A stretch of 64,000 nt of DNA from Candidatus Melainabacteria bacterium (lineage in GTDB: Bacteria > Cyanobacteriota > Vampirovibrionia > 2-02-FULL-35-15), in contig JAHFBE010000001.1 of NCBI GenBank assembly GCA_023250205.1, positions 66,428 through 130,427 of the forward strand, read 5' to 3'. The translations under genes were made by a program, and so were the position numbers. The notes under the pieces were generated by a model. The model had not been told where the DNA came from. It made no database searches and saw nothing but the letters and a program-made list of their open reading frames with translations. Position 1 is the first letter of the stretch, and each line of letters starts with the position of its first letter. Below, one piece after another: positions 12,158 to 29,513 of the stretch.

Positions 12158-13009
12158 TCAAGAAGAAATCTTCCTCATAATCTCTTCATATTTTTCTCTA
12201 TGACCAGTTTTTATTGAGAGTTCAAGTGCTCCGGTTAAATCTCCCCACTCTAGCAACTTATCAATTTTCTTGACAGCTTCCTCTTCGTGTAAAGATTCCA
12301 TTTCAAGCTTTTCTTTATGTACTCCTTTGCTAATTTTTAAATCTTTATTTAGAGTTAAAGGAATCAGGCTCCCTTCTCCAATAGTTAATTCTGGTTGTTT
12401 ACGAAAAGCTCTTTCTATAAACGAAAGTCCAATCCCATCAAAACCACCCCAAAAAAAATCTTTAATTCCATTTTGATATGCCGACAATAATCCACTTGCA
12501 AGAAATCCAGCCCCATATCCAATTCCTAATGTTAGAGGTCCACTTGCCGTAGTTAAAGCGGTAACAGATCTTACTGTACTAGCCAGATCACTATTCACAT
12601 GAGGAGGGTAAGCAGACTTAAAATTTGGTGAGCTTGCTGATAATGAAATTTCTCGTCCATCATTTAGATAAAGTTTATCAGTTAAGAATTCAAGAGCCCC
12701 TGCTCTAGATGCTCTTCCAGATTCTGATACTTTTGACACAGAACCTGTAATGAGGAGGTTAGGAGTTTCCTTATCAACTACATTGAATAAGACTTTGCTA
12801 CCTTGCTCAGATTCATTTGAAGATACATCGCTTTTTAAAGCGACATTTATAGTTGTCCCTTTTTTAATAACATCATAAGATTCCAACAAATCAGGCTGGA
12901 CTCTGTATACATCTAAATCTGAGATTTCATTTGCACTAACTGAGGCAACATTGGCACAAAAAAACATAATCAACGTTAAACAAACAGTAAATTTAAAAAT
13001 CCTTACCAT
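12158..13009 (-). CDS. Secreted hypothetical protein (signal peptide), co-oriented with the Wza/Wzc-like genes.
   Basis: N-terminal signal peptide (…ANVASVSA). No recognisable motif. Operonic with the polysaccharide export genes upstream. Confidence 0.45.
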   Translation of the reverse strand: MVRIFKFTVCLTLIMFFCANVASVSANEISDLDVYRVQPDLLESYDVIKKGTTINVALKSDVSSNESEQGSKVLFNVVDKETPNLLITGSVSKVSESGRASRAGALEFLTDKLYLNDGREISLSASSPNFKSAYPPHVNSDLASTVRSVTALTTASGPLTLGIGYGAGFLASGLLSAYQNGIKDFFWGGFDGIGLSFIERAFRKQPELTIGEGSLIPLTLNKDLKISKGVHKEKLEMESLHEEEAVKKIDKLLEWGDLTGALELSIKTGHREKYEEIMRKISS

Positions 13010-14272
13010 TTATTCACCATCTGAGGATCGGTTGGCTTGAATAACAGTAACCCCGGAACCTCCGCCACCCAGCAAAGAACTATTAGTACCACTTCTTAAA
13101 CCTTTACTTTGATGACTAATTCTCCTAAACATATGATCTTGAAGAATGAAAGTACCAACATTTTGCCCGACTACATAAACAAGGGAAGAACCTACTGTGT
13201 GCAAGAAATTTCTAACTGCTTTTCCATGTGAAGCTCTTACCTCTATTCTATCGTTAGGTCTTAGAGCAATTTGATCAAGCTTAGTCCCACTTTGAAGCAG
13301 GTTATCAAGATTATATTCTTTCCACCTATAAACTCCTTTATCATCAAATCGTGCAATTCTTACTTTTTTAGTAGTGCCAACTACATCTGTGCCGCCAGCA
13401 CTTCCAATTGCATCAAATATAGTTGCATCATTTGGTAGTGTGAAATTCCCTGACATTACAACATCACCAACTACATTTACAGCAACTTCCTGATAAGCAA
13501 GCCTTCCAAGCAAGACGACATTCCCTTGTGCTTGATCTTCAATTTTGTCAGTTGATAAAACAAAAACCGCATCTCCCGGTTGTAAATTTACATCTTCAAA
13601 AGCTCTATCTCCAGTTACTAGAGCTTTTAAATCTACGATTCTCTTTTCAGAATTACTTCCTCTTGTTACAGTTATTGCTCTTATATCTGCCCTTGGTTTT
13701 AATCCACCTGCAAGCTGAATAACCTGTGTAAGAGAAAGTTCAAAAGTATTTGTTGTCGTAGCACTTGTCTTTCCATCTTCAGCCTGAGTCGTTGATGTTT
13801 CAACTTTGTACACCCCAGGGTTTACAATCTCACCACCTATATAAATGTTTATTGGTCTGTATCTGCTTAACTGTACAAATACAAGTGGGTTTTTTAATGT
13901 TTTTCCAAATAATTCCCTAATTTCATCAGACAACTCATTAACTGTATATCCAGCAGCAAGCAAGCTGTACTGCGTACCATCTGGCAATGGAATAGAAATA
14001 TATCCATCAGAAGAAACAACCAAATCATATCTTTCAACCTGACCAAATAACTCTCTTAGAGTTCGATCAACAATAGATAGTTGATCTCCCGGTCCAACAA
14101 TATATGGTGGAGTTAGTGTAACTTTCATTTTCACTTGCTTCGGCACCACATCAATTAAAGATTCTGATTCCTGAGCAAAGCTTAAATTACAAAGAATATT
14201 TTGAATCAAAAAAGAAACAATAAGAATTATATGAAATACTTTTTTCCAATCTTTGTATTTTTTATTCTTCAT
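13010..14272 (-). CDS. Polysaccharide export protein, Wza/OPX family.
   Basis: Signal peptide. PES motif (PYIVGPGDQLSI) and repeated SLBB-like segments. Confidence 0.75.
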   Translation of the reverse strand: MKNKKYKDWKKVFHIILIVSFLIQNILCNLSFAQESESLIDVVPKQVKMKVTLTPPYIVGPGDQLSIVDRTLRELFGQVERYDLVVSSDGYISIPLPDGTQYSLLAAGYTVNELSDEIRELFGKTLKNPLVFVQLSRYRPINIYIGGEIVNPGVYKVETSTTQAEDGKTSATTTNTFELSLTQVIQLAGGLKPRADIRAITVTRGSNSEKRIVDLKALVTGDRAFEDVNLQPGDAVFVLSTDKIEDQAQGNVVLLGRLAYQEVAVNVVGDVVMSGNFTLPNDATIFDAIGSAGGTDVVGTTKKVRIARFDDKGVYRWKEYNLDNLLQSGTKLDQIALRPNDRIEVRASHGKAVRNFLHTVGSSLVYVVGQNVGTFILQDHMFRRISHQSKGLRSGTNSSLLGGGGSGVTVIQANRSSDGE

Positions 14273-14283
14273 ATGATTCCTTG

Positions 14284-16401
14284 CTATGCTGCAGATTGTG
14301 AGATGTATCTGTCAGGATCACCATAACCGTAATAACCATACCCACTCAATACACTATTTGGAACACCATTTAGTATTACCCCCGTAGCAGTTACATTTGT
14401 TTTCTTTAAAAGATCAATAGATACCAGAAGTTCTTTTCTGGAAGTTTTGTTATATCTTGAAATCAACGCAACAACATCTGCATAACGTGCCAGTAGTAGT
14501 GCATCAGAGAAATAACCTAGTGGCGGAGTATCAATTATAACCAAATCATAAATATGCTGAGATGTTTCAAGTAATTCTCTCATTTTATCTGATTCAAGCA
14601 ATTGAACAGGGTTTGGAGGGATGTCACCACCTGGCAAATAATCAAAACCAATAATTCCTAGTATACTCTTCTGAACAACATCATAAAAATCAATTTCATT
14701 AATTAAAGTGTTACTTATCCCTACCGCATCTTTTGGTCTTGCCAGATACTTATATAATGAAGGATTTCTAATATCAGCATCTATTAATAAAACCCTCTTC
14801 CCACTTTGAGCATAGGTAATTGCAAGATTTACTGATACCGTAGATTTACCTTCTCCTTGAGTTGAACTTGTTACAAGTAACAGTTTTTTATTACCTGTTA
14901 ATGAAAGGAAAGAGAGATTAGTTCGTAACGCATGAATAGCTTCCGTAAAATCAGAACGTGGTTCCTGATAAACTACAGGCAAATCACTTATATATGTACT
15001 TGGGAGCTGTCCTAAGAATGGACAACCAAGATTTTTTGGTAAAGTATCAACACTCTTTATTACATCATCAAAATATTCGACCAAATATATTACAAGAGCA
15101 GCAAGGCATAACCCAATAATAAAACTAGTAAACAGTGTTCTTGAAACATCAGGCCATTTAGGCTTTGTTTCTAACGATGGTGGATCTATGAGTCTAATGT
15201 TTGTAATATGTGAAGCTATTACTCCCTTCATTCTTGATTCAATTAATTTACCTTCAATTTCTTCCAGTCTTTTTTCAGCGACTTCATTTTGTCTTAGTAA
15301 TTGATTATAAATATATTTTTCATTAGGTAATTTATCTAACTTTCTTTGAAGATCATCAATTGCTCCCTGAACAACAATCAATTGTTGTTCAGCAGCAAGC
15401 TCAGCAGTTTTTGTCTGAAGCAAGGTTTTTGTAAGTTCTGCTCTAAATGGATCTGCCGCGAAATTAAAAGTATCAGGGGATACTTCTTTTCCAACTAATT
15501 CATTTAATCTTTCTGCTATTAATTTCTTATCACCTTCAATTTGTTGATTCACTTCTTCCAACTGATAGTGTCCGGGCTTAACTTTTGTTTGTAGTTTGAC
15601 CAACTGTGCTTGTTTTTCATACAAATCTTTTCTTAAAGCTCCAAGAAATGGATCCTGATTAACTGTTGTATCAAGAATAGCTTCATCTAAACCTGACATT
15701 AACTGTTTTGCTGCTTGTTCAGAAGCAGATTTTGCTTTTACATAGTCAGTATCAATTGAAAGTTTAAGACTCTTTAAAGAATAAGCAGTTCTTATTAATT
15801 CATTATTAGATTCAAGTCCAACATTTTTACTTCTCTGTTCAAACTCCCTCAATCGTTTACTTGCATCCAGAGCTTCTCTTTCCGCTCTATTTCTTTCTTT
15901 TTTTAAAAACCTTATGGCACTTGCTGTATCACTTGCTTTTAATTCTATAGTTTTTTCTATGTAACTATCTGTTATTGCTTGTAGGATATCTTTTGCTTTT
16001 TTAGGATCTGGGTCTTGATATCTTAACTCCACAATATCAACGTTTCTATCTGCAGACACTGTAAGATTTCCACTAAGGCTTAAGTAGCTTAAATATTGTC
16101 CTTTTTGCGGTCCTTTCTTATAACGTAAATTAAACCTACGAATAACTTTTTCTAATATTGTTGATGACCTCATAATTTCAATTTGAGTCTGGATCGGATC
16201 ACTCAATCTTGCAATTGATTTAAATGGTTGAATTGAATCACTATTATCAAACCCAAGATCTTTTGCTTCAATAAGTAACCTATCTCTACTTTCATATATT
16301 GGAGTGACCGTAAGAGCATAAATCAAAGCTATAGTTGGTACTAAAAAAATAATTAGCAGGCCCAATCTTAAATGGATTCTAATTGCTTCGTAAAAATTCA
16401 A
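14284..16401 (-). CDS. Polysaccharide co-polymerase / BY-kinase (Wzc-like tyrosine autokinase).
   Basis: N-terminal Wzz-like TM plus periplasmic coiled-coil domain. C-terminal Walker A (GEGKST, LLIDADIRNPS). Terminal Tyr cluster GYGYYGYGDPDRY. Confidence 0.85.
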   Translation of the reverse strand: MNFYEAIRIHLRLGLLIIFLVPTIALIYALTVTPIYESRDRLLIEAKDLGFDNSDSIQPFKSIARLSDPIQTQIEIMRSSTILEKVIRRFNLRYKKGPQKGQYLSYLSLSGNLTVSADRNVDIVELRYQDPDPKKAKDILQAITDSYIEKTIELKASDTASAIRFLKKERNRAEREALDASKRLREFEQRSKNVGLESNNELIRTAYSLKSLKLSIDTDYVKAKSASEQAAKQLMSGLDEAILDTTVNQDPFLGALRKDLYEKQAQLVKLQTKVKPGHYQLEEVNQQIEGDKKLIAERLNELVGKEVSPDTFNFAADPFRAELTKTLLQTKTAELAAEQQLIVVQGAIDDLQRKLDKLPNEKYIYNQLLRQNEVAEKRLEEIEGKLIESRMKGVIASHITNIRLIDPPSLETKPKWPDVSRTLFTSFIIGLCLAALVIYLVEYFDDVIKSVDTLPKNLGCPFLGQLPSTYISDLPVVYQEPRSDFTEAIHALRTNLSFLSLTGNKKLLLVTSSTQGEGKSTVSVNLAITYAQSGKRVLLIDADIRNPSLYKYLARPKDAVGISNTLINEIDFYDVVQKSILGIIGFDYLPGGDIPPNPVQLLESDKMRELLETSQHIYDLVIIDTPPLGYFSDALLLARYADVVALISRYNKTSRKELLVSIDLLKKTNVTATGVILNGVPNSVLSGYGYYGYGDPDRYISQSAA

Positions 16402-16558
16402 ATTTCAACCCCTGTCATCTAAATATTCACAAATAAAAAACTGTTCTAATGTATAGTTACCCCCTGTCCTCTAGGGTTAAACTGTTATAGATTAAACATA
16501 TGAAATAAAATTTACAGTTAATCCGAATCAATTAGCAGGATAGCCCTATTCAAATTAT

Positions 16559-17572
16559 TTACTGAACCAAGCCAAAAGAAGTTGCAAGCAGAGCCTGATC
16601 ATCTAAAACAATATTTCCCGGTCCTGCTCCTACAGTTAAACCACTCCACATATTATCTATATACTTTGGTATAACAGTTGCAGCAATATGGTAATCATTT
16701 CCTATCTTATAAACATCATCAATTGTAATTCCTACAAATCCTTGAACAGTAACATTATTTGTAAACCCTTGATCTAGTGTAATAATTGGAGAAACAAATG
16801 TTTTCCCTTCAAAGTAAGTAGAGTCAAGCTGATTATAAACACTAGTTAAATTACCATTACTAATTTGAAAATGTTCCCCAACCATTAATGCTGGAGGTGA
16901 AACTCCTATAGATTGATTTTGGAAATAATCAATTATTTCTTTAATATCACTTGCATTTGCATTGTCCGAATTAAAAGAAGTAAAGTATGAGTTTGCAATT
17001 CCAGATTGAACTAAGTCAATCATATTATTATTATTATTTGCAATTGAAAGCAAAGAGCTATTCAATGCTAATGGAAACCCTCCTCCAGGAGCCATATTTC
17101 CTGCTATTTGCTTTGCAGCTACTGCACTTTCTGATATCTGGATATTATCAATCATAAAAACAATTGCAAGAAATGGGACTGATTTATAGGAGTAATAAAC
17201 TCTTATTGCATTTGTAGAAGGACTTACTTCATTTTCAACAAAAGTCATTCCATTAAAATCATAGCTACCAACCTGAATAGAAACATCAGGATTATCCAGA
17301 GTCAAAGTACTATATGAAGGTAAAAGCATTGAGAGATTATCATTTAGATATTGAAGTGCTGTATTTTTTGCATTATTAATATCTGTCGAATTACTTAATT
17401 GAGACACTCCTGCAATACTTGCAAAATCAACAGCATTTTTTATTCTTGTTCTCAACGAATAAGATTGACTGACATCAATAACAAGACTTCCCAAACCAAG
17501 TATTGAAGTTAACAAAATAGCAAAAAATGCCACCGCAAGACCTCGTTCATTTCTATTGATAATGTTAAACAT
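16559..17572 (-). CDS. TadG-like putative pilus-assembly/pseudopilin protein (copy 1).
   Basis: N-terminal TM (GLAVAFFAILLTSILG). Pairs with the overlapping TadE-like gene. Paralog of 21082..22068. Confidence 0.65.
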   Translation of the reverse strand: MFNIINRNERGLAVAFFAILLTSILGLGSLVIDVSQSYSLRTRIKNAVDFASIAGVSQLSNSTDINNAKNTALQYLNDNLSMLLPSYSTLTLDNPDVSIQVGSYDFNGMTFVENEVSPSTNAIRVYYSYKSVPFLAIVFMIDNIQISESAVAAKQIAGNMAPGGGFPLALNSSLLSIANNNNNMIDLVQSGIANSYFTSFNSDNANASDIKEIIDYFQNQSIGVSPPALMVGEHFQISNGNLTSVYNQLDSTYFEGKTFVSPIITLDQGFTNNVTVQGFVGITIDDVYKIGNDYHIAATVIPKYIDNMWSGLTVGAGPGNIVLDDQALLATSFGLVQ

Positions 17573-17999
17573 GTGAGACCTCAGATCTTGCTATAGAACT
17601 GCTTCTTACAACTGGACTCCAGGATTGATTTGAATTAAGTAAGCCAAATGGATTGATAATTGGAGTGTAATTATATTGAACCTGTACTGTAATTGTTGAA
17701 CCAACATTCTTCTGCGCTCCGGGAGCAGGTGTAATAATCAAAACAAATTTTGAAACATCAGGCAAGAGCTCACTTGCACCTGATACATCAATTAACTCCT
17801 GCTGAGTATAAACCGATGTTACAGATGCATACCTTGCAGTAGTTCTGGATATTTGATTAAGGGTATTTGTTAAATATAGAACATTTCCAAATTCAACTAT
17901 AAAAAAAGTTACACTAAGAAGTATAGGTATTAAAATAGCAGACTCAACCATTACACTTCCTGTAAAAGATCTATTAAAATAGTTTTTATATATCATCAT
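17565..17999 (-). CDS. TadE-like minor pilin/pseudopilin (copy 1).
   Basis: TadE N-terminal signature (GSVMVESAILIPILLSVTFFIVEFGNVLY). Paralog of 20654..21082. Confidence 0.75.
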   Translation of the reverse strand: MMIYKNYFNRSFTGSVMVESAILIPILLSVTFFIVEFGNVLYLTNTLNQISRTTARYASVTSVYTQQELIDVSGASELLPDVSKFVLIITPAPGAQKNVGSTITVQVQYNYTPIINPFGLLNSNQSWSPVVRSSSIARSEVSHV

Positions 18000-18319
18000 G
18001 ACAATGTTAGAGCTTATACTCCAGCTTTCTATCTAATAAGAATTCTATATAAATTAAGAGCTTTATAGTTTACGATCAGGATTATCTCTAGCCATTTCAG
18101 CGCTATCCCAGACTATGTTCATAAGATCACAAGTTTAAAGAATTATTCTGAGTATATTAATAATGAAAAGTAAAGTAAAACTTTGATAAGAAATAAACTT
18201 TAACTTTTTATTTATGCTGGTTACCCCTGATTATCTAATAACAAGGGTTAACAATAGGTATATTTGCTCTATCAATTGGGTATGTAAAAATCATGTGTTA
18301 ATTATAGGGAGGTAACTAT

Positions 18320-18481
18320 ATGAACAAATTAGTCCAATTTATAAAAGATGAAGAAGGTGCATCAATGGCCGAATACGCTCTTCTTCTGGGATTAATTACA
18401 GTGGCAATTGCTACAGTAATTACTGCATTTGGATCAAAGCTCAGCACCGTTGTTACAAACGCTACCGGCGTTTTAAAATAA
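18320..18481 (+). CDS. flp: Flp/Fap pilin (53 aa), copy 1 of 3.
   Basis: Manual translation: MNKLVQFIKDEEGASMAEYALLLGLITVAIATVITAFGSKLSTVVTNATGVLK, with the Flp motif G/(A/S)-EY processing site. RBS GGGAGG. Below the ORF-track size cutoff. Confidence 0.85.
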   Translation: MNKLVQFIKDEEGASMAEYALLLGLITVAIATVITAFGSKLSTVVTNATGVLK

Positions 18482-18612
18482 TCTTAGTTAGGCACAAGAA
18501 ATTCTTAATTTTGTTCATTTGAACATCTCCAGAATAATTGTGCCTTTTCTATTTAATACTAATATTTAATAGAGATATCTCTATTGCCTTAATACTATTA
18601 AGGTGTGGCATC

Positions 18613-18647
18613 AGCTAAACAAATCATTACTTAAGTATGATTTAGCT
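18613..18647 (+). promoter_or_regulatory. Stable hairpin (AGCTAAACAAATCAT…ATGATTTAGCT) immediately upstream of the flp2 RBS. Two further palindromes lie at 18569..18584 and 18587..18603.
   Basis: Inverted repeats read directly in the flp1-flp2 intergenic region. Possible processing/attenuation structure. Confidence 0.35.
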
Positions 18648-18662
18648 TAGGAGGCTACACTT

Positions 18663-18824
18663 ATGAATATCGTTAAATTGTTGCTCCAGGATGATGAAGG
18701 GGCTTCAATGGCAGAATATGCTCTTCTTCTTGGATTAATTACTGTTGCTATCGCTACAGTAGTTACAGCATTTGGATCTAAACTTGGTACAGTTATTACA
18801 AGCGCTACAAATGTACTTAACTAA
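18663..18824 (+). CDS. flp: Flp pilin (53 aa), copy 2 of 3.
   Basis: MNIVKLLLQDDEGASMAEYALLLGLITVAIATVVTAFGSKLGTVITSATNVLN. RBS TAGGAGG. Confidence 0.85.
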   Translation: MNIVKLLLQDDEGASMAEYALLLGLITVAIATVVTAFGSKLGTVITSATNVLN

Positions 18825-18921
18825 GAACTGTTAAATTAAATAAACATAATAAGCTATTCATGGATTAGTACATTCTTCTACAGGGTAAATAAAATTTATC
18901 TAAAAATTGTAGGAGAATCTT

Positions 18922-19083
18922 ATGAGTAGCTTATTAAATTTTATAAAAGATGAAGAAGGTGCATCAATGGCTGAATACGCTCTTCTTCTGGGAATAGTAA
19001 CTGTAGCAATAGTCACTGTACTAACAGCTTTTGGTTCTAAAGTTAGCACAAGCATTACCAATGCAACAGATGCCATTAAATAA
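18922..19083 (+). CDS. flp: Flp pilin (53 aa), copy 3 of 3.
   Basis: MSSLLNFIKDEEGASMAEYALLLGIVTVAIVTVLTAFGSKVSTSITNATDAIK. RBS AGGAGA. Confidence 0.85.
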   Translation: MSSLLNFIKDEEGASMAEYALLLGIVTVAIVTVLTAFGSKVSTSITNATDAIK

Positions 19084-19122
19084 GCATCTTATTAATTAAA
19101 AAAATGCTAGAGAAATTGCAAA

Positions 19123-19632
19123 ATGATAAACATTGGGGTTGATAATTTATTTCTTTTATTAATAACACTTACAGGTGCAACATATGATTGGAAAGCAAGA
19201 AGAATCCCAAACTGGCTTACATTTGGTGGACTAGCAATAATTCTTTCATTCAATACTTTTCATTTTGGGACTGAAGGCTTTATAAATTCTTTATTAGGTT
19301 TTGTATCTGGCATTGGGCTTTTACTCATCCCATATTTACTTGGTGGAATGGGGGCAGGTGATGTAAAACTTCTTGGAACTGTTGGTGCAATAGCCGGATA
19401 TAAAGGAATTGTTGTTATCTTTTTTTACACTGCAATCAGCGGATTGATTATTGGCATTATTTGGCTAATTTTTACCCCTGATCGTCTTAAATTTCTGATA
19501 ACAACAGGACAAATATTACCAACTGTAGATAAAAAACAAAAAGTCCCCTATGGTATTGCTATCCTAATGGGAACAATTCTATATATAATGTTTGGAGTGA
19601 ATAATATTTTTAACATAATCACATGGCAGTAA
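19123..19632 (+). CDS. cpaA: Prepilin peptidase CpaA/TadV (A24 family).
   Basis: Catalytic Asp motifs in context (TYDWKARRIPN, GGMGAGDVKLL). Polytopic membrane protein. Confidence 0.85.
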   Translation: MINIGVDNLFLLLITLTGATYDWKARRIPNWLTFGGLAIILSFNTFHFGTEGFINSLLGFVSGIGLLLIPYLLGGMGAGDVKLLGTVGAIAGYKGIVVIFFYTAISGLIIGIIWLIFTPDRLKFLITTGQILPTVDKKQKVPYGIAILMGTILYIMFGVNNIFNIITWQ

Positions 19633-22434: not shown

Positions 22435-24855
22435 CTAATTTAATTTTTTATTTTCCCTAGTCAATCTCATGGCTTCTTTAGCCTGAGAATATTTTTGCAT
22501 TTCTTTTTGCCAAGTTTGTTTTAGAGATTCCTGATATTGTGACAATTCAATTTGCTTCTTCTTTTCACTTTCTATTTTTCTTGTAAGCTTCTCTTTTTTT
22601 CTTTCTTCTTTTAGCTTTCTTTTTTCTTCATTACTAATTCTAGCTTTGCCTTGCCAGAAGAAATTTTTACTTTGTTTCATTTGATCATTCTTTTTTGAAT
22701 CATCTGAGTTTTCTATACTTTCTTTAAAATCCTTCTCAAGCTTTTTGTCTTCAAATCCATTTTTAGCTCTTTTTTGAAGCTCCAACCACTTAGAATTATC
22801 AGGCTTATTTGATACTTCTGACAATTCTTTTATAGGACTTTCTTTCGGGACTACCTCTTCAATCTGCTTTATTTCTTTTTGCTTCAATTGTTCTGAAAGC
22901 TTATTTAACTTATTTTCATTTAAAGATTTTTTATCACTCTCATCTAACAATGGATTATTATATTTTCCAGCATCAATTGGTTCTTTATTATCAGGACCTT
23001 GCTCATCCATCATATCTATCTGTGGTTTAAGCGGTGGCACTTGATTAAACTCATTATATGGAATCTCTGGATTTTTAAACTGAGCTATTTTATTTGGATC
23101 AGTTGCCCTAACAATCACTGGAGAAACAACTACCAAAAGCTCTGTCTGACCTTTTGTAAAAGACTTACTTCTAAATAATGTCCCTAGAATGGGTGCATCT
23201 CCAATACCAGGGACTTTTCTTAGACTTCTTGTATTATCTTCTCTAAGTAAACCACTAATGGCAAAAGCTTGTCCTGAATAAAGTTCAACCTGAGTTTGTG
23301 TTCTTCTTGTTCTAAATGCAGGTGGTCTTACAGAAGTTGATCCGGGAGGAACGACTAAATTTGAGAGCTCCGTATCTATATCCCTGATTTCAGGAATTAA
23401 TTGTAAAAATATTTTATCGTCACTAGTTAGTGTAGGTAATAACGAAAATTTGATTCCAAAAGGTTCATAAGTTACATCCTGACTTGCACCACCAGCAGTA
23501 AAAACAGATCTTAAAATTGGGACTTCGCCACCTGCTAGAAAAGAAGCTGGCTCTCCATTTGCAATTACAAGATTTGGCTCTGCCAGTGTTTTAATTTCTC
23601 CTCTTTGTTGCAATGCCTGTATAATTGCACCAATACCATTTTTAGGATTAAAAATTACTCCTGTAACTCCCTGACCAATCTCTTGAGAAAGGAATGAACC
23701 ATGACCAGCTCCATTTGCAAAAGAAAATTCAGAGCCTGTCTGTGCGCTTCCCGCCATAAATGACATCAATCCTACAATTGAACCTATACCACCAACAGTT
23801 TGACTTATTCCATTTCCACCAACAAAAGTACCAGCACCAAGAGTATTACCACCAGCAATTGTATTAAAGCCTAGATTTCTTGCAGCAGATCTATTGATTT
23901 CATAGAACCTTATAGCCACAGATATTTGAGCAGGATTGTCAACAGTTAGAAAACTTATAACTGAACCTCTTTGAGTAGTAGCAATTACCCCTCTGCTTAG
24001 ATTTGCATATCTATTAGAAGTAAATCTTAAAGGATCTCGTGCACCAAATGCAGTCGCTGAGCCTTGAGAACTCCCAGACTGAGAGTCTGAATTACTATAA
24101 ATATCATATCTACCGGAAAGTCCATCTACAATTTGACCTCCGGGTTGACTTATAATTTTTATTCCCTGATCACCAACATATGCTCCTGCAACCTGAAGAG
24201 CCCTTGCAATTATTTCTGCATTTGAAACTGCCCCTTTTAAAACAATCTTTCCAGTGGTAGCATTTGAACCTGCGCTTGAAGGACCAGTTGCTGGTTGACC
24301 ACTCGGTGATGGTTGGCTAGCTGCATTTGGATCTGGAGAAGCTGCCCCTCCTTGTGAAGCTGGATTTGAAGCTAAGGTACCACTTGGTGGAATGTATTCA
24401 ACTATAATGTTTTTGTCTAACTCACGCAATTGTTTAGTCAACAACTCAATATCAGGCCATACTGAAACATCAAACCTGCTTGGTTTGTCATTCCCTTTTT
24501 CCCAAATCAATACAGTACTGGTGCCAAGTTGCTTAGCTCTAGAAAATATTTCCTTTTCATTGAGGATCTGGATATCAACAATTGACGGATCACTTACAGC
24601 AACTCTTGAAACAGGCTTATCACTAAAAACAACTTCACCCTTACCTAAAATTATTTTCTTATCCTGTGTTTTATCTTGATAAAAATCAGCTTCTAAAAAA
24701 TAAACTTTGGAATTTGCAGGAAGCAAAAAATTTAAGATCGTTAAAACTACTAAAAGATATGATTTGATTAAAAGTTTTATTGAGGCGGAAGTATTAGTTT
24801 TCATAATCACGATAACGATTAGAGAACCAGCATTTAAAGAATTTGTTCCATACAA
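22435..24855 (-). CDS. cpaC: Tad secretin CpaC/RcpA with a Ser/Pro/Gly-rich linker and a ~230-aa K/E-rich coiled-coil C-terminal extension.
   Basis: Secretin core (GEIKTLAEPNLVIANGEPASFLAGGEVPI, LLVVVSPVIV). Long low-complexity SPSGQPATGPSS region. Charged C-terminal tail. Confidence 0.8.
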   Translation of the reverse strand: MYGTNSLNAGSLIVIVIMKTNTSASIKLLIKSYLLVVLTILNFLLPANSKVYFLEADFYQDKTQDKKIILGKGEVVFSDKPVSRVAVSDPSIVDIQILNEKEIFSRAKQLGTSTVLIWEKGNDKPSRFDVSVWPDIELLTKQLRELDKNIIVEYIPPSGTLASNPASQGGAASPDPNAASQPSPSGQPATGPSSAGSNATTGKIVLKGAVSNAEIIARALQVAGAYVGDQGIKIISQPGGQIVDGLSGRYDIYSNSDSQSGSSQGSATAFGARDPLRFTSNRYANLSRGVIATTQRGSVISFLTVDNPAQISVAIRFYEINRSAARNLGFNTIAGGNTLGAGTFVGGNGISQTVGGIGSIVGLMSFMAGSAQTGSEFSFANGAGHGSFLSQEIGQGVTGVIFNPKNGIGAIIQALQQRGEIKTLAEPNLVIANGEPASFLAGGEVPILRSVFTAGGASQDVTYEPFGIKFSLLPTLTSDDKIFLQLIPEIRDIDTELSNLVVPPGSTSVRPPAFRTRRTQTQVELYSGQAFAISGLLREDNTRSLRKVPGIGDAPILGTLFRSKSFTKGQTELLVVVSPVIVRATDPNKIAQFKNPEIPYNEFNQVPPLKPQIDMMDEQGPDNKEPIDAGKYNNPLLDESDKKSLNENKLNKLSEQLKQKEIKQIEEVVPKESPIKELSEVSNKPDNSKWLELQKRAKNGFEDKKLEKDFKESIENSDDSKKNDQMKQSKNFFWQGKARISNEEKRKLKEERKKEKLTRKIESEKKKQIELSQYQESLKQTWQKEMQKYSQAKEAMRLTRENKKLN

Positions 24856-24913: not shown

Positions 24914-25879
24914 CTATGACATTTTTCCCAGTGTTGAAACTAATTTAACAATTGGTGGACCCATTGTAACGGCCATTATCACGGGAAATATAAAAATTGC
25001 AAGTGGAATCATCATTTTAATAGTCATTTGAGCAGCTTTTTCTTCTGCTTTTTGTTTTCTACGTACTCTTAAAAATTCAGCTTGGTTTCTAAGTACTGTA
25101 CCTACACTTGCCCCAACTTTTTCAGATTGAACAATTACCCTTGCAAGATTTTTTAATTCCTCCGAATTTGCTCTTTCTCCAAAGTTTGCCCAGCATATTG
25201 CTCTTTCTTGTCCCAAGCTTAATTCTCGGTTAGTTAAAATTATTTCTTCAGTAAGTTCTTTACCCTTTGAACCAAGATTTGAAGCTACTCTTAAAAGTGC
25301 TTGATCAATTCCCATACCAGCCTCCGTACATATAACCAGCAAATCAAGTGCATCAGGTAATACTTTATCAATACTCTGCTGTCTCTCACCAGCAATTTTG
25401 TCAACAAACATATTTGTACCTATAAAGCCAATTGCCCCCGTAACAAAAGCAAGTCCAAAAGCAGCCTGTATATCTTTACCAAGAATCGAGCAAGCAAATA
25501 GAACCCCACCAGCAAGTGAAACAGCAACAGCAGACTTTATTGCATAAAAGAACTGTAATGATTTTTTACTCCTAAATCCAGCTCTGATTAATAGTTTTCT
25601 CATCTGAGATTGTTTGTTATATGGAACCTTTTCAGCCATCCAGTTTCCAACCTGTTCTCCCAATGGAAGTAAAACTCTTCTTGCAAATGTTTCATCCTTA
25701 TCTGGACTCTGCTGAGCTCCGTACAAACCAGTACTTCTTTCTGAAAGCCAGAATTTTAATCTTTTATTTATTTCTTTTGACTGCGAAGAAATCTCTTTCA
25801 TTCTATAGGCAATAAGCAAAAGGAGGAAAATCAATCCAAATGTACATAAACTAATTAATATAAATGCAAAGGAACTCAT
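24914..25879 (-). CDS. tadC: TadC (GspF-like inner-membrane platform protein).
   Basis: T2SS-F-like domain, polytopic. Position downstream of tadB. Confidence 0.8.
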   Translation of the reverse strand: MSSFAFILISLCTFGLIFLLLLIAYRMKEISSQSKEINKRLKFWLSERSTGLYGAQQSPDKDETFARRVLLPLGEQVGNWMAEKVPYNKQSQMRKLLIRAGFRSKKSLQFFYAIKSAVAVSLAGGVLFACSILGKDIQAAFGLAFVTGAIGFIGTNMFVDKIAGERQQSIDKVLPDALDLLVICTEAGMGIDQALLRVASNLGSKGKELTEEIILTNRELSLGQERAICWANFGERANSEELKNLARVIVQSEKVGASVGTVLRNQAEFLRVRRKQKAEEKAAQMTIKMMIPLAIFIFPVIMAVTMGPPIVKLVSTLGKMS

Positions 25880-25881
25880 TG

Positions 25882-26877
25882 TTATACCTCAAGTTTTGTA
25901 ATTTTCTGAATGACTAAATAACCAAAAGTCATTGAAATTGCACATCCAATTAAAATAATTTTTCCAATGGGATCAGTAGCAAACGAATTGTATACAGCTG
26001 GAGCCAATAGATTCAATACAATATATAAGCCAATCGGAAGAACTAATAATAAAACTGCAGATGCCTGATTTTCTGCTGTTAAAGCTTTAATCATTCCTTT
26101 TAGTCTGAATCTTTCTCTCACTGTATTTCCTATACTTGAAGTCAGTTCAGCCAGATTTCCACCAAGCTCCCTATTTATAATTATTCCAGTACATAAGATC
26201 TGGACATCCATAGTGTTTACTCTTCTTGAAAGATTGTTTAAAGCTTCACTTATCGGGAGTCCAAGATTAATTTCAATAATAACTTTTCCAAATTCTTCAC
26301 CAATTGGTCCAGGGAATTCTTCGGCTAAATGCTTTAGAGCAGCCTGAACATCCAATCCTGCACGAACATCACTACTAATCAAATCCAGTGCTTGAGGGAG
26401 TTGCTGAACAAATGCAGCTGTCCGCCTTTCTTTTAAGAACGTGAGTAAAATATACGGAACTATAGCTATACCAAATCCCACAAATGGAATATGAAAGAAT
26501 ATATTCACAAGCATAAATCCAGTTAATCCAAGGAATACAGTAAAAAGTAAAAATTCCCCTGCTTTTATTTTTAAGCCGCTTTGTTCTATAAGATTAATCA
26601 ATGACCTTGCGTTTTCTTTCAGGAATTTTAAGAAAATAGTATTTAACCATGGAATAGAGCTTATTCTCAGATCTCTCCTTAAATCAGATTCTTCGCCATC
26701 TTGACTAAGATTAGACTTTTCTTCAGCAAAAAAATGGTCTGTGCTATCAAGCGCTCGTTCCAATCTTTTATTCTGATGTTTTTTTTCTTGAGCATTCTGC
26801 CATATAAAAAAAGCAGACATGCAAAGCAATATTACTGCAATAAAACCAATTACAGAAAAGAACAAAGGTGCAAGCAT
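25882..26877 (-). CDS. tadB: TadB (GspF-like inner-membrane platform protein).
   Basis: T2SS-F-like domain. Follows cpaF. Confidence 0.8.
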   Translation of the reverse strand: MLAPLFFSVIGFIAVILLCMSAFFIWQNAQEKKHQNKRLERALDSTDHFFAEEKSNLSQDGEESDLRRDLRISSIPWLNTIFLKFLKENARSLINLIEQSGLKIKAGEFLLFTVFLGLTGFMLVNIFFHIPFVGFGIAIVPYILLTFLKERRTAAFVQQLPQALDLISSDVRAGLDVQAALKHLAEEFPGPIGEEFGKVIIEINLGLPISEALNNLSRRVNTMDVQILCTGIIINRELGGNLAELTSSIGNTVRERFRLKGMIKALTAENQASAVLLLVLPIGLYIVLNLLAPAVYNSFATDPIGKIILIGCAISMTFGYLVIQKITKLEV

Positions 26878-26880
26878 AAT

Positions 26881-28275
26881 TTATAAGGTCACATTAAACA
26901 TTTCTGCAGGTAATTTATAACCCATCGCTTCTAGCTTCTTTGAAAATAGTGGCCTTACCCCCGATGGTTTAAATATACCCTTTACCTTACCATTTTCGTC
27001 TATCCCTTTTTGTTCAAATACAAACACATCCTGAGTAGTGATAACACCATTTTCCAGCCCTGTTACCTCAGCAATTTGGGTAACCCTTCGTGAACCATCT
27101 GAAGCTCTATTTAACTGACAAATTAAACTTACCGCTGAAGCAATTTGTTCTCTTATAGCTTTTTGCGGAAGTTCAATCCCTGACATAAGACACATTGTTT
27201 CAAGTCTGCTAAAAGCATCTCTTGCAGTATTAGCATGTAATGTCCCCATACTGCCATCATGACCTGTGTTCATTGCTTGTAATAGATCAAGCGCTTCTCC
27301 AGATCTAATTTCTCCAAGAATTATTCTTTCCGGTCTCATACGTAAAGCATTTTTTACAAGATCCCTCTGAGAAATCTCGCCTTTTCCTTCAAGATTAGGT
27401 GGTCTTGTTTCAAGTCTAACGACATGGTCTCTTTGAAGCTGCAATTCAGCTGCATCTTCTATAGTTACAACTCTTTCCTGATCCGGAATATACCTGGAAA
27501 GAGCATTTAAAAAAGTAGTCTTACCAGAACCAGTACCACCAGAAACTATTATATTCATCCTACAAATCACACAGAGCTTCAATATGTCACACATTGCCTG
27601 AGTCATTGCTCCAAATTTAACAAGATCATCAAGGATGAATTTTTTCTCTGAGAATTTTCTTATTGAAAGGGAAGCTCCATCTATAGCAAGAGGTAAAATA
27701 ATTGCATTAACACGTGAACCATCTTTTAATCTTGCATCTACCATAGGAGAAGATTCATCCACTCTTCTACCAACACCGCTTGTAATGCGTGTTATAACTC
27801 TCATCAGATGACTCTCATCATCAAAAATAATATCAGTTTTTTCTAAGACCCCTTTTCTTTCAACATAAACATGATTTGGACCATTTACCAAAATATCATT
27901 AACAGCCGAGTCTCTCAACAAAGGCTCAATTGGACCCAGTCCCAAGATATCATCAATTAGTTCTTCTATTAATTGCTTTCTGTCATTAGTCCCTAGAGGT
28001 ACACCATCTTCTCTAAGGAGTGCTTCAATAAGATTTACAATTTGTTGTTTAGTAGAATCATCATTTATATCTTCACCTAGTTTTCCAGTATCAAGCTCTT
28101 CAAGAAGTTTCGAATGCAATTTTTTCTTTAAATCTTTATACGAGTTATTTGTCTTTGAGCTCGTAGCTGCAGTAGGCTTATGTTGGGCTGTCTTTAATTC
28201 TTCTTGAGAAGCAGATGGTCCGCCATCCTTCTTTGTAAAAAAATTCTTTGTAAAATGTTGATTTGGTTGACTCAT
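26881..28275 (-). CDS. cpaF: CpaF/TadA secretion ATPase.
   Basis: Walker A (IIVSGGTGSGKTT), Walker B/Asp box and His box (GHDGSMGTLHANTARDA). Confidence 0.92.
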   Translation of the reverse strand: MSQPNQHFTKNFFTKKDGGPSASQEELKTAQHKPTAATSSKTNNSYKDLKKKLHSKLLEELDTGKLGEDINDDSTKQQIVNLIEALLREDGVPLGTNDRKQLIEELIDDILGLGPIEPLLRDSAVNDILVNGPNHVYVERKGVLEKTDIIFDDESHLMRVITRITSGVGRRVDESSPMVDARLKDGSRVNAIILPLAIDGASLSIRKFSEKKFILDDLVKFGAMTQAMCDILKLCVICRMNIIVSGGTGSGKTTFLNALSRYIPDQERVVTIEDAAELQLQRDHVVRLETRPPNLEGKGEISQRDLVKNALRMRPERIILGEIRSGEALDLLQAMNTGHDGSMGTLHANTARDAFSRLETMCLMSGIELPQKAIREQIASAVSLICQLNRASDGSRRVTQIAEVTGLENGVITTQDVFVFEQKGIDENGKVKGIFKPSGVRPLFSKKLEAMGYKLPAEMFNVTL

Positions 28276-28292
28276 AGATTTATCTGCTCAAT

Positions 28293-29513
28293 TTAAAACC
28301 AGCTAAGCAATCCTTTTTTCTTCGCTTTAGTATCATCCACAACTAAATTCTTTTCTTTGACACCTTTATCTTCTTGAGCCTGTGGCAAATCTGTCTTTGT
28401 AAACTTGCTTGCAAGAATATTATAAGAAGTAGCTAATGGGGAATTTGGTGAGACTTCTAAAAGTGGTCTTCCATAGTTTGCTGACTCAACACACAATTCC
28501 CAATCGTTTGGAAGAGAATGAAATATCTGATGATTAATCTGTTTTTGAATAAGCTCTGGTTCCAAACTTCCTATATACCAGTCCTGCCTATTGATTATTG
28601 GTTTAATTCTATGTTCTTGCACTCCTACCTCTTTTAAGGTATTTATAAAGAATCTGTTATCTCTAATCGCCAGAAGATCAAAGGTTGTCAACATAAGAAT
28701 ATCTGTTGCTCTTTGAATAAATAACATCGTAGTTTCATCAAGTAAATGTGTTGAAGTATCTATTACGATGTAATCATAAATTTCACTTGCAATATCAATA
28801 ACCTTACCAAGAGTTTCCAGATTTACATCATGTAAATCATTTGTTTTCATTAATCCACCGATTACAGAAAGATTTTTTCCAACCATGCTTACTGCATTAG
28901 TAAGATATTGCTCATCCAAGCTGTGACCCTGCCTGCAAATATCTGCCAGAGTACACTTAGGAATTACATTAAGCAAAACTGTTACATGGTTTGAGAAACC
29001 AGCTCCATCAATAAGCAATGTTTTCTTTCCATATACATTTGCAAGTGAATAACTTAAATTTACTGCAGCGGTACTTACACCTGTACCACCCTTATAACTT
29101 GTAAATGTAATAATTTTTGAAGTTCTTCTATTTATAGCATTTGTGCTAGGAGCAGTGTGCAATCGATCTAAGCTAGAAATTAATTCTGATCTCTTAAATG
29201 GTTTCACAAGAAATCCTATTGCTCCAAGTCTAATTCCTTCAATTGCAAGATCTGCATCTTTTTTATCAGATACTATTAAAAAATGTTTACCAACAAGATT
29301 TGGAGTAACTAAAGCTACTGTTTGAAATGAGTTTTCATGATTACCAGTAAAGTCAAATATAATTAATTCTGCTTCTTTTACTAAAGTCGGATCTTCCGCA
29401 ATTTTTGAATCTGTCGCTAAAGATATTTCTACCGGGCCTTCCCAGACATCAGCAAATGTATCTTTCCAATATTTATCAGAAGTTTCTTGAGTTATTATTG
29501 TAACTTTAAGCAT
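28293..29513 (-). CDS. tadZ: TadZ/CpaE: N-terminal receiver-like domain plus a MinD/ParA-like ATPase.
   Basis: Deviant Walker A in a ParA-like domain (SYKGGTGVSTAAVNLSYSLA). REC-like N-terminal ~120 aa. Adjacent to cpaF. Confidence 0.8.
   Translation of the reverse strand: MLKVTIITQETSDKYWKDTFADVWEGPVEISLATDSKIAEDPTLVKEAELIIFDFTGNHENSFQTVALVTPNLVGKHFLIVSDKKDADLAIEGIRLGAIGFLVKPFKRSELISSLDRLHTAPSTNAINRRTSKIITFTSYKGGTGVSTAAVNLSYSLANVYGKKTLLIDGAGFSNHVTVLLNVIPKCTLADICRQGHSLDEQYLTNAVSMVGKNLSVIGGLMKTNDLHDVNLETLGKVIDIASEIYDYIVIDTSTHLLDETTMLFIQRATDILMLTTFDLLAIRDNRFFINTLKEVGVQEHRIKPIINRQDWYIGSLEPELIQKQINHQIFHSLPNDWELCVESANYGRPLLEVSPNSPLATSYNILASKFTKTDLPQAQEDKGVKEKNLVVDDTKAKKKGLLSWF

What the first reader, a model, noticed from the sequence alone, without database searches (positions are those of the whole stretch)
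12158..29513. Atypically organised Tad/Flp pilus locus with duplicated TadE/TadG pairs, triple flp, embedded Cys-rich peptide and adjacent Wza/Wzc export genes
All core tad functions are present: flp×3, cpaA, cpaB, cpaC, cpaF, tadB, tadC, tadZ, tadE and tadG. The layout is unusual.

Two TadG-TadE pairs flank the pilin genes in opposite orientation (16559..17999 on minus, 20654..22068 on plus). The paralogs are only ~60% identical, suggesting functional divergence rather than recent duplication. The machinery genes form a separate minus-strand block, cpaC-tadC-tadB-cpaF-tadZ, converging on the plus block. A 78-aa secreted 10-Cys peptide gene sits at the convergence point. No TPR pilotin (TadD/RcpB-type) is present in the window. 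A Wza/Wzc exopolysaccharide export pair lies immediately upstream.

This may be a lineage-specific adhesion, biofilm or predation-related Tad system variant.
Basis: partly seen in the sequence, partly recalled or inferred. Interest (0 to 1): 0.7.

Follow-up and report, generated by a model that had tools for sequence, protein, structure and literature searches.

The report
Melainabacterial Tad pilus locus, swapped tip cassette
This is a complete, ordinary-working Tad (Flp) adhesion-pilus gene cluster from a non-photosynthetic relative of cyanobacteria; its "odd" layout is the normal one for that group, and the only real peculiarity is a swapped cassette of pilus-tip genes that carries a small cysteine-rich secreted peptide.

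Summary
One figure needs correcting: the TadE paralogs are 67% identical and the TadG-like paralogs 39%, not about 60%.

The window comes from a Melainabacteria genome. The split layout recurs in at least 8 related lineages, so it is typical of the clade rather than atypical. That layout is tadE-tadG-wzc-wza-p283 diverging from flp(n)-cpaA-cpaB-minor pilins, which converge on tadZ-cpaF-tadB-tadC-cpaC.

The two TadG-like genes are old paralogs; the G1 clade has 100% bootstrap support. What is specific to this lineage is the slot after cpaB. The nearest relatives carry TadE-TadE-vWA-TadG there. The window carries TadE2-TadG2 plus a 10-Cys peptide instead. Against one closer relative, that cassette shows dS of about 0.25, while neighbouring machinery genes show 1.3-1.6, which suggests recent exchange.

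wzc-wza-p283 has its own conserved upstream motif and also occurs without tad genes, so it is probably a separate unit. p283 folds like a VirB10 C-terminal domain.

The closest precedent is the interchangeable Tad "Tip" complexes of Myxococcus. Verdict: a new variant of a known kind, of moderate to low interest.

The parts
12158..13009 (-). p283: a secreted VirB10/TrbI-like beta-barrel protein with a conserved Gly-rich hydrophobic helical hairpin and a short TPR-like C-terminus. It is the last gene of wzc-wza-p283.
13010..14272 (-). Wza-type outer-membrane polysaccharide export (OPX) protein; not a lipoprotein.
   Evidence: Poly_export, SLBB_2 and SLBB above cutoffs; sequence.
14284..16401 (-). 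Wzc-type polysaccharide co-polymerase / BY-tyrosine kinase.
   Evidence: Wzz + AAA_31. TIGR01007 170.9 bits against a cutoff of 108. Walker A GEGKST and a C-terminal YGYYGY cluster. 73-82% identical across the lineages that carry it.
16446..16496 (-). Conserved non-coding motif upstream of wzc; a candidate promoter or operator (-35 TTTAAC, 16 nt, extended -10 TGGTAACTA).
   Evidence: Conserved in 9 lineages, including L020, which has no tad genes at that site. Unique in the window. No Rfam match. Function is inferred.
16559..17572 (-). TadG1: a short (337 aa) TadG-like large minor pilin with no vWA domain.
   Evidence: PF13400 at residues 14-57. Orthologs are 71-76% identical in L014 and L016 at the same position. 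The G1 clade has 100% bootstrap support.
17565..17999 (-). TadE1 pseudopilin (G|SVMVE prepilin motif); overlaps tadG1 by 8 nt.
   Evidence: PF07811 E 4e-11; sequence.
18320..19083 (+). Three tandem flp pilin genes (18320-18481, 18663-18824, 18922-19083), each with a ribosome-binding site and the G|ASMAEY motif.
   Evidence: PF04964 above cutoff for all three. 60-74% pairwise identity. Sequence. Relatives carry 2-4 copies.
19123..19632 (+). CpaA/TadV prepilin peptidase (no methylase domain).
   Evidence: Peptidase_A24 E 6e-19, 169 aa.
19623..20495 (+). CpaB/RcpC periplasmic alignment protein.
   Evidence: SAF + RcpC, E 4e-31.
20654..21082 (+). TadE2 pseudopilin; first gene of the swapped tip cassette.
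   Evidence: PF07811 E 2e-11. 67% identical to TadE1. dN/dS 0.19 against L008.
21082..22068 (+). TadG2: a short (328 aa) TadG-like large minor pilin.
22193..22429 (+). Cys78: a secreted, acidic peptide with 10 Cys; last gene of the cassette.
   Evidence: No Pfam, NCBIfam or PADLOC family. Three homologs at 68-72% identity keep all 10 Cys. Same position in L008. dN/dS 0.44.
22435..24855 (-). CpaC/RcpA secretin with a roughly 225-aa charged C-terminal tail that ends in a conserved W..E..KYS.AKEAM.LAREN motif. The likely start is 24804.
   Evidence: Pfam. RcpA 8odn E 2e-36. Tail comparison across 5 lineages.
24914..26877 (-). TadC (24914-25879) and TadB (25882-26877) platform proteins.
   Evidence: T2SSF E 8e-20 and 3e-17.
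26881..28275 (-). CpaF/TadA ATPase.
   Evidence: T2SSE E 7e-63.
28293..29513 (-). TadZ/CpaE: an N-terminal region with a weak, sub-threshold receiver-domain match plus a ParA/MinD-type ATPase (KGGTGVST).
   Evidence: AAA_31 E 3e-12, above cutoff; Response_reg E 1e-4, 22.6 bits against a cutoff of 30.2. Sequence.

Best explanation
This is a chromosomal, complete Tad (type IVc, Flp) pilus system of a Melainabacteria (Vampirovibriophyceae) bacterium, and it works as canonical Tad systems do.

Proposed mechanism:
- CpaA cleaves the three Flp prepilins and the two TadE pseudopilins at G|xxxxE.
- CpaF, with the TadB/TadC platform and positioned by TadZ, polymerises Flp.
- The fibre leaves through CpaB(RcpC) and the CpaC secretin. 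No TadD-type TPR pilotin is encoded in the window.

Layout: the three-transcription-unit arrangement is the standard one for this clade, not an anomaly.

Minor pilins: the two TadE/TadG-like pairs are old paralogous modules. Most likely they form two alternative priming or 'tip' complexes, each presenting a different TadG C-terminal module at the pilus end.

The swap: in this lineage the slot downstream of cpaB holds tadE2-tadG2-cys78. The nearest relatives have a classical TadE-TadE-vWA-TadG set there. The window's cassette appears to have been exchanged recently between lineages.

Neighbours: wzc-wza-p283 is a neighbouring polysaccharide-export unit with its own control region. It has been kept beside tad by long-standing synteny.

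Shown here: gene identities, synteny, paralog history, purifying selection, and the dS discontinuity.
Inferred: the tip role, alternative use of the two pairs, and any role for the peptide.
For: - Domain calls.
- Prepilin motifs can be read directly from the sequences.
- Taxonomy: the TadG-like and p283 relatives that carry names are all Melainabacteria or Caenarcanales. The flanking genes are housekeeping genes and GC content is even.
- Clade-wide layout.
- Long-range collinearity with L014-L016.
- TadG1 clade at 100% bootstrap with both paralog types present in L007 and L011.
- The slot after cpaB holds TadE(178)-TadE(169)-vWA-TadG(551) in L009, L014 and L016, but TadE2-TadG2-Cys78 in the window and L008.
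- Window against L008: cassette dS 0.24-0.28 and DNA identity 87-95% over about 20755-22392. For tadC and cpaC, dS is 1.3-1.6 and DNA identity mostly 65-89% (53-56% in the secretin tail). Cassette dN/dS is 0.19-0.44.
- The TadG2 model is pilin-like with an extra C-terminal module. The C-terminal module is the less conserved part between G1 and G2 (35% against 43-47%).
- Precedent: interchangeable TadE/F/G-type Tip complexes on a Tad pilus (PMC12075869).
Against: - There is no direct evidence that the two pairs are used alternatively rather than together.
- The dS contrast rests on a single 5.6-kb MAG contig (L008), which could be a chimeric assembly.
- A vWA-type TadG or a TadD pilotin could be encoded outside the 64-kb window.
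- TadG-like proteins lack the E+5 of processed pilins, so their incorporation into the fibre is assumed by analogy.
- The organism is uncultured, so piliation itself is unproven.
Confidence: 0.65

Rival explanations
1. The two TadE/TadG-like pairs are not alternative tips. Together they form one composite four-subunit initiation complex, analogous to GspH-I-J-K or FimU-PilVWX, and both pairs are needed for every pilus.
For: - Both paralog types coexist in one operon in L007 and L011 (G1-E-G2) with only a single TadE, which fits co-assembly.
- Both window pairs are under purifying selection or conserved.
- Canonical Tad systems use three minor pilins together (PMC12075869).
Against: - Copy number varies freely between lineages, from 1 to 3 TadG-like and 1 to 2 TadE.
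- Several relatives have only one TadG-like gene (L006, L018), or one TadG-like gene plus a vWA-type TadG set (L009, L014, L016).
- So neither paralog is universally required.
Confidence: 0.3
2. The Tad genes and wzc-wza-p283 form one functional adhesion module. Pilus activity and secretion of a polysaccharide adhesin would be mechanistically coupled, as with pilus-triggered holdfast export in Caulobacter. The VirB10-like p283 would supply or gate an outer-membrane passage.
For: - tad minor-pilin or flp genes lie directly beside wzc in 8 lineages spanning 44-65% p283 identity: window, L006, L007, L009, L011, L014/15, L016 and L018/19.
- In 7 of them the minor pilins are co-directional with wzc.
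- In the window there are no glycosyltransferase, Wzx or Wzy genes beside wzc-wza.
- p283 has a VirB10-like barrel with a conserved hydrophobic hairpin where VirB10 has its membrane-spanning antenna.
Against: - L020/L021 keep wzc-wza-p283 at the same chromosomal site with no tad genes.
- L001 and L012 have tad loci with no wzc nearby.
- wzc has its own conserved upstream motif in all 9 lineages.
- In L018 the trio heads an ordinary EPS biosynthesis cluster.
- Adjacency could simply be inherited synteny.
Confidence: 0.22
3. The system is a Kil-like predatory or contact-killing Tad apparatus, given that Vampirovibrio is a predator. Cys78 would be a toxin or effector delivered with, or displayed on, the pilus.
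For: - Multiple tip modules are characteristic of the Myxococcus Kil pilus (PMC12075869).
- Small secreted Cys-rich ORFs recur only beside minor-pilin genes: 5 of 5 such ORFs found in 254 kb.
- Some Melainabacteria are predatory (PMC4451040).
Against: - No Kil-specific partner (needleless T3SS*, FHA proteins) is present in the window. The T3SS-type genes at 6622-10337 are flagellar export genes.
- Herrou et al. report that the Kil Tip families are confined to Myxococcota.
- Cys78 is strongly acidic and has no toxin or antimicrobial family match.
- The relatives come from groundwater and sediment MAGs of unknown lifestyle.
- The V. chlorellavorus genome paper does not mention Tad or Flp genes in its main text.
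Confidence: 0.07
4. One TadE/TadG pair is a decaying leftover of a duplication and has no function.
For: Relatives manage with a single TadG-like gene.
Against: - All ORFs are intact, with prepilin motifs and overlapping or abutting starts.
- Pair 2 has dN/dS 0.19-0.29.
- Pair 1 has 71-76% identical orthologs in the same position.
- Both paralog clades persist across lineages.
Confidence: 0.03

Closest known systems
Canonical Tad/Flp (type IVc) pilus loci: Aggregatibacter actinomycetemcomitans flp-tadV-rcpCAB-tadZABCDEFG, Caulobacter crescentus pilA-cpaA-F/tadBC, Pseudomonas aeruginosa flp-rcp-tad
   Same: The core parts are the same: Flp pilins, TadV/CpaA, RcpC/CpaB, the RcpA/CpaC secretin, TadZ, TadA/CpaF, TadB, TadC and TadE-type pseudopilins, plus the N-terminal TadG domain.
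   Different: - The genes form three transcription units rather than one co-directional operon, and the secretin gene sits at the end of the machinery operon after tadC.
- No TadD, RcpB or CpaD-type pilotin is present in the window.
- The secretin carries a 148-410-aa charged tail with a conserved terminal motif.
- The TadG-like proteins are short (about 330 aa) and lack the vWA domain found in the 551-aa TadG of close relatives.
Myxococcus xanthus Kil Tad pilus with four interchangeable KilL/M/N (TadE/F/G-like) 'Tip' complexes (Herrou et al. 2025, PMC12075869)
   Same: Several paralogous minor-pilin sets serve one Tad machine. The large TadG/KilN-type pilin has a pilin base and a variable distal module with no PDB homolog.
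   Different: - Here there are two-gene sets (TadE + TadG-like), not trimers.
- One set is accompanied by a non-pilin Cys-rich secreted peptide.
- No T3SS* partner is present.
- Sequence families are unrelated beyond the Tad/TadE N-termini.
- A predatory role is unknown.
Short 'TadG-related' proteins (about 320-360 aa) of other phyla, for example one annotated 'pilus assembly protein TadG-related protein', Desulfobaccales
   Same: Similar length. The Melainabacterial profile aligns over nearly the whole protein: 172 representatives at E<=1e-10 and 5,438 at E<=1e-3.
   Different: The tight family that contains TadG1 and TadG2 is small: 21-22 representatives at E<=1e-30. The only organisms named for its loci are Melainabacteria.
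Wza/Wzc (OPX/PCP-2a) polysaccharide export, including composite OPX translocons (PMC9603273, PMC9601211, PMC12819527)
   Same: Wzc with a BY-kinase domain and a Tyr cluster; Wza with Poly_export + SLBB domains.
   Different: - The conserved third gene is a VirB10-like barrel-plus-hairpin protein (p283), not a beta-barrel porin.
- No Wzb, Wzx, Wzy or glycosyltransferases lie nearby in the window.
- Wza is not a lipoprotein.
VirB10/TrbI C-terminal domain of type IV secretion systems (TraF pKM101 3jqo, CagY 6odi, ComB10 2bhv)
   Different: - No VirB10 N-terminal TM or Pro-rich region; p283 has a signal peptide instead.
- No other T4SS genes are nearby.
- Pfam TrbI score is below the gathering cutoff (24.8 against 35).
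- There is an extra TPR-like C-terminal helix bundle.

Membership tests
Tad/Flp (type IVc) pilus system | Flp-family pilin with the G|xxxxEY processing motif | tested here: met
   Three ORFs match PF04964 above cutoff. The motif EEG|ASMAEY is visible in all three.
Tad/Flp (type IVc) pilus system | Dedicated TadV/CpaA prepilin peptidase without a methyltransferase domain | tested here: met
   169 aa, Peptidase_A24 only, E 6e-19.
Tad/Flp (type IVc) pilus system | TadA/CpaF ATPase, two platform proteins TadB and TadC, and a TadZ/CpaE ParA-like ATPase | tested here: met
   T2SSE E 7e-63; T2SSF x2; AAA_31 above cutoff, a sub-threshold receiver-domain match, and a KGGTGVST motif.
Tad/Flp (type IVc) pilus system | RcpA/CpaC secretin with RcpC/CpaB | tested here: met
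   Secretin + pil_N domains; best PDB match RcpA 8odn, E 2e-36; SAF + RcpC E 4e-31.
Tad/Flp (type IVc) pilus system | TadE/TadF pseudopilins | tested here: met
   Two PF07811 proteins with the G|SVM(V/A)E motif.
Tad/Flp (type IVc) pilus system | TadG with an N-terminal Tad domain and a C-terminal vWA-type domain | tested here: inconclusive
   [not shown]
Tad/Flp (type IVc) pilus system | TadD/RcpB/CpaD-type pilotin or TPR lipoprotein | tested here: not met
   No TPR family hit in any window ORF scanned. None lies between tadC and the secretin in L008, L009 or L011. This is an accessory component, not universal in Tad systems, and it could be encoded elsewhere.
Kil-type predatory Tad apparatus (Myxococcota) | KilL/M/N Tip families and functional association with a needleless T3SS* | not tested
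   No Kil HMMs were available. Herrou et al. report these families as confined to Myxococcota. The only T3SS-type genes in the window are flagellar fliN/P/Q/R.
Wzx/Wzy-dependent Wza-Wzc export | PCP-2a with a BY-kinase domain and a C-terminal Tyr cluster, plus an OPX protein | tested here: met
   TIGR01007 170.9 bits against a cutoff of 108; YGYYGY tail; Poly_export + SLBB.
Wzx/Wzy-dependent Wza-Wzc export | Linked Wzb phosphatase, Wzx flippase, Wzy polymerase and glycosyltransferases | tested here: not met
   None among the window ORFs scanned. Glycosyltransferases and a sulfotransferase do follow the trio in L018.
VirB10/TrbI (type IV secretion) | TrbI-family sequence match above the curated threshold | tested here: not met
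   p283 scores 24.8 bits against a cutoff of 35.
VirB10/TrbI (type IV secretion) | C-terminal beta-barrel with a helical antenna | tested here: met
   [not shown]
VirB10/TrbI (type IV secretion) | Genomic association with VirB7/VirB9/VirB4 and the rest of a T4SS | tested here: not met
   There are no T4SS genes in the window or beside the p283 homologs; the neighbour is always wza.

The most novel reading that the evidence does not exclude
tadE2-tadG2-cys78 is a horizontally exchangeable 'tip cassette' of Tad pili, and the small disulfide-rich secreted peptide is a new, non-pilin accessory or cargo of the Tad pilus tip. Such peptides recur beside TadG-like or TadE genes in five lineages and nowhere else in 254 kb. 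Separately, the VirB10-like p283 may be a new kind of alpha-helical outer-membrane partner of a Wza-type exporter.
Probability: 0.15. Interest if true: 0.6.

Novelty: new variant of a known kind. Interest (0 to 1): 0.35.

Why it matters
Tad pili have not, as far as I could find, been described for Melainabacteria. That group is the non-photosynthetic sister lineage of cyanobacteria and includes gut commensals and the algal predator Vampirovibrio.

The locus shows that the 'interchangeable tip' idea recently established for Myxococcus may apply in a distant phylum. The evidence is a swapped minor-pilin cassette inside an otherwise collinear locus, which gives a concrete case for testing how Tad pili acquire new binding specificities.

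Two by-products could be followed up cheaply by multimer modelling:
- a recurrent Cys-rich secreted peptide beside minor-pilin genes;
- a VirB10-fold protein always encoded after wza.

None of this changes how Tad pili are thought to work, so the value is incremental.

Tried and rejected
- Exact look-ups of window proteins to name the source genome failed or returned no accession. Taxonomy therefore rests on named relatives.
The narrower alignment found only 2 genomes, and the metagenome scan only one 1.3-kb contig.
- The promoter/terminator scan of 16300-22500 gave no more hits than shuffled sequence, so operon boundaries are not established that way.
- Rfam found nothing, at gathering thresholds over the whole window or at a permissive E-value over 16350-22500. 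There are no tRNAs.
- Cys78 and the three other Cys-rich peptides have no Pfam match even at E<=10, apart from noise-level hits. They have no NCBIfam or PADLOC match either. An LDL-A-like calcium-cage resemblance that I noticed by eye is unsupported.
- The afdb50 fold library was unavailable.
- p374 (29705-30829) against the p283 family: hhalign probability is only 38% and BLASTP is not significant. A shared fold is suggested by weak TrbI hits and Gly-rich segments but is not shown.
- I considered and rejected the idea that wzc-wza is co-transcribed with tadE1-tadG1 as a single obligatory operon, because the conserved motif upstream of wzc is also present where tad is absent.

Full report
**Observation**

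They match the expected Pfam families above the curated cut-offs:

- Flp_Fap x3, Peptidase_A24 (169 aa), SAF + RcpC;
- TadE x2, and the N-terminal 'Tad' domain x2;
- Secretin + T2SS-T3SS_pil_N, T2SSF x2, T2SSE;
- AAA_31 for TadZ (its N-terminal receiver-domain match is weak and below the cutoff);
- Poly_export + SLBB, and Wzz + ParA-type ATPase.

NCBIfam adds a tyrosine-autokinase domain above its cutoff for Wzc. The Wzc sequence shows the Walker A motif and a C-terminal YGYYGY cluster. The best solved relative of the secretin is the Pseudomonas Tad secretin RcpA (8odn, E 2e-36).

The Flp proteins carry EEG|ASMAEY and the TadE proteins carry G|SVM(V/A)E. Each flp gene has its own ribosome-binding site.

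The 78-aa ORF has a signal peptide, an AxA site and 10 Cys in the mature part.

No TPR protein was found among the window ORFs scanned.

- The TadE paralogs are 67% identical and the TadG-like paralogs 39%, not about 60%.
- The secretin probably starts at 24804. It has a charged C-terminal tail of about 225 aa.
- The first gene in the stated range (12158-13009) is a separate protein, not part of Wza or Wzc.

**Source organism**

GC content is about 33% and even across the window. The flanks are housekeeping genes: PGK, RecG, FtsZ, a primary-type sigma-70 family factor, hisG/hisZ and flagellar fliN/P/Q/R. This is chromosome, not an island.

The TadG-like family is small. The word-indexed search found 21 proteins in a 5.8e9-sequence database. 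A full HMM scan of 1.84e9 representatives found 22 at E<=1e-30.

The only genome records that carry organism names are 'Candidatus Caenarcanales' and 'Candidatus Melainabacteria' MAGs. The p283 family has 29 clusters, and the two that carry a name are Melainabacteria. The NCBI lineage is Melainabacteria, class Vampirovibriophyceae.

Weaker full-length matches to the TadG-like profile are numerous: 172 at 1e-10 and 5,438 at 1e-3. One of them is annotated as a 'TadG-related protein' of Desulfobaccales. The short TadG architecture is therefore not unique to this phylum; only this subfamily is.

**Is the layout atypical?**

No. I mapped the window proteins onto 13 non-redundant related loci.

The same three-block plan recurs. 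The flp(2-4)-cpaA-cpaB-minor pilin block converges on the secretin in L001, L008, L009, L011 and L014/15. Of these, only L011, and partly L001, extend into the rest of the tadZ-cpaF-tadB-tadC machinery operon. Diverging from flp, minor-pilin genes lead into wzc-wza(-p283) in L006, L007, L009, L011, L014/15 and L016. In L018/19 the flp block itself diverges from wzc.

In L014/15 (GCA_001784585.1) and L016 (GCA_947085685.1) the collinearity extends through cysteine desulfurase, Rrf2, fliR/Q/P/N, two Band_7 genes, hisZ and hisG. That is exactly window 3051-24855 in mirror image.

Tandem flp copies (2-4) are also the rule in these relatives.

I found no paper describing Tad pili in Melainabacteria. 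The V. chlorellavorus genome paper mentions only generic type IV pili. So the arrangement is common in the clade but undescribed.

**History of the two pairs**

A neighbour-joining tree of 18 TadG-like proteins gives a G1 clade with 100% bootstrap support. It contains window TadG1, L014, L016 and the first TadG of L007 and L011. The remaining sequences form a looser G2-type grade that contains window TadG2.

L007 and L011 carry both types in one operon (G1-TadE-G2, then wzc). The paralogy is therefore old.

TadE1-TadG1 are positional orthologs of the L014 and L016 genes (73-76% and 71-76% identity).

The difference lies in the slot after cpaB. L009, L014 and L016 have TadE(about 178)-TadE(about 169)-vWA-TadG(551) there. 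The window and its closer relative L008 (GCA_964489505.1) have TadE2-TadG2-Cys78.

Comparing the window with L008:

- The cassette has dS 0.24-0.28 and 87-95% DNA identity from about 20755 to 22392.
- tadC and cpaC have dS 1.6 and 1.3, and mostly 65-89% DNA identity (53-56% in the secretin tail).
- Identity drops on both sides of the cassette.
- Cassette dN/dS is 0.19-0.44.

Minor pilins normally evolve faster than the machinery, so the reverse pattern points to recent exchange of the cassette. The caveat is that this rests on one short MAG contig, which could be chimeric.

**TadG-like structure**

The TadG2 model (pLDDT 80, pTM 0.67) has a 50-residue N-terminal helix, a second helix, a pilin-type sheet and an additional alpha/beta module.

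G1 and G2 are 43-47% identical in the pilin part and 35% in the C-terminal module.

This matches the description of KilN/TadG in the Myxococcus Kil system. There, four paralogous TadE/F/G-type sets form interchangeable 'Tips' with variable distal domains, and the authors propose similar tip complexes for Tad pili generally (PMC12075869). That paper is the closest precedent, and it is the basis for my preferred mechanism of two alternative tip or priming complexes. The rival, a single composite complex, is not excluded.

**The Cys-rich peptide**

Cys78 has three homologs at 68-72% identity, and all 10 Cys are retained. It occupies the same position in L008.

I screened all ORFs of 35-130 aa, in six frames, over 254 kb (the window plus 12 loci). 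Exactly five combine a signal-peptide-like N-terminus with at least 4 Cys. All five lie directly beside minor-pilin genes:

- window and L008, after TadG2;
- L011, after the G2-type TadG, on the opposite strand; this one has weak similarity to Cys78;
- L009, between cpaB and TadE;
- L003, after an orphan TadG-like gene.

All are acidic and have SPase I rather than lipoprotein cleavage sites. None matches any family. The association is real, but the function is unknown. My guess is a tip-associated accessory subunit, and that is inference only.

**wzc-wza-p283**

Wzc is the most conserved protein of the region (73-82% identity). The trio is adjacent to tad genes in eight lineages.

Three observations argue for an independent unit held beside tad by synteny:

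- L020/L021 keep the trio at the same chromosomal site without tad genes.
- L001 and L012 have tad loci without it.
- A motif of about 50 nt upstream of wzc (window 16446-16496, minus strand) is conserved in all nine lineages aligned, including L020. It reads as a -35 / extended -10 promoter.

In L018 the trio heads a glycosyltransferase/sulfotransferase cluster.

p283 fails the Pfam TrbI threshold. It lacks the VirB10 N-terminus and has no T4SS neighbours, so it is not a T4SS component. Given current work on composite OPX translocons, an outer-membrane partner role for Wza is worth testing, but it is speculative.

**Other clade features**

- The secretin tail varies from 148 to 410 aa. It keeps a conserved proximal segment and a terminal W..E..KYS.AKEAM.LAREN motif.
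- There is no pilotin gene between tadC and the secretin in any relative.

**Verdict**

- The interpretation 'atypically organised' is not supported. The layout is the clade norm, and the parts are canonical Tad parts.
- What is new is modest: a clade-specific short TadG subfamily in two old paralog types, an apparently exchanged tip cassette with a Cys-rich peptide, and a VirB10-fold protein tied to wza.
- This is a new variant of a known kind, with interest about 0.35.

Noticed in passing
[not shown]
   Followed up: partly
window 16446-16496 (-): A non-coding motif of about 50 nt upstream of wzc (TTTAATCTA..GTTTAACCCTA..GGTAAC..TAG) is conserved in nine lineages, including one without adjacent tad genes. 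It looks like a -35 / extended -10 promoter or an operator. There is no Rfam match.
   Followed up: partly
window 22435-23109 (-), the C-terminal ~225 aa of the secretin: The secretin has a K/E-rich tail of variable length (148-410 aa in relatives). It ends in a conserved W..E..KYS.AKEAM.LAREN motif. This could be a tethered partner-binding segment in a system that has no pilotin gene.
   Followed up: partly
window 29705-30829 (+): A 374-aa secreted protein is encoded divergently from tadZ. It has weak TrbI and DUF4352 hits and a long Gly-rich hydrophobic segment, superficially like p283 at the other end of the locus. hhalign probability is only 38%, and no homolog was found in the fetched loci.
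   Followed up: partly
window 38404-53787 (+): A giant 5127-aa ORF is made of repeated beta-propeller modules (FG-GAP, Kelch and Vgb_lyase-like) with TIG domains. It is probably a surface or adhesion protein.
   Followed up: no
window 6622-10337 (+): Flagellar export genes (fliN/Y-like, a 93-aa ORF, fliP, fliQ-like, fliR) followed by Rrf2 and a cysteine desulfurase. The block is collinear with the Melainabacteria MAGs L014-L016 and L020.
   Followed up: partly
L003 10001-11382; L009 5333-5539 (-); L011 11023-11256 (-): Unrelated small secreted acidic peptides with 6 Cys sit next to TadG-like or TadE genes in other lineages. One of them is beside an orphan TadG-like gene far from any tad locus.
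   Followed up: partly
L001 17484-20443: In one relative, two unannotated genes of about 480 aa each are inserted on the opposite strand between tadB and cpaF, interrupting the machinery operon.
   Followed up: no
window 60242-61024 (+): A 260-aa ORF has a weak intermediate-filament (coiled-coil) Pfam hit. It lies near ftsZ and is possibly a bacterial cytoskeletal coiled-coil protein.
   Followed up: no
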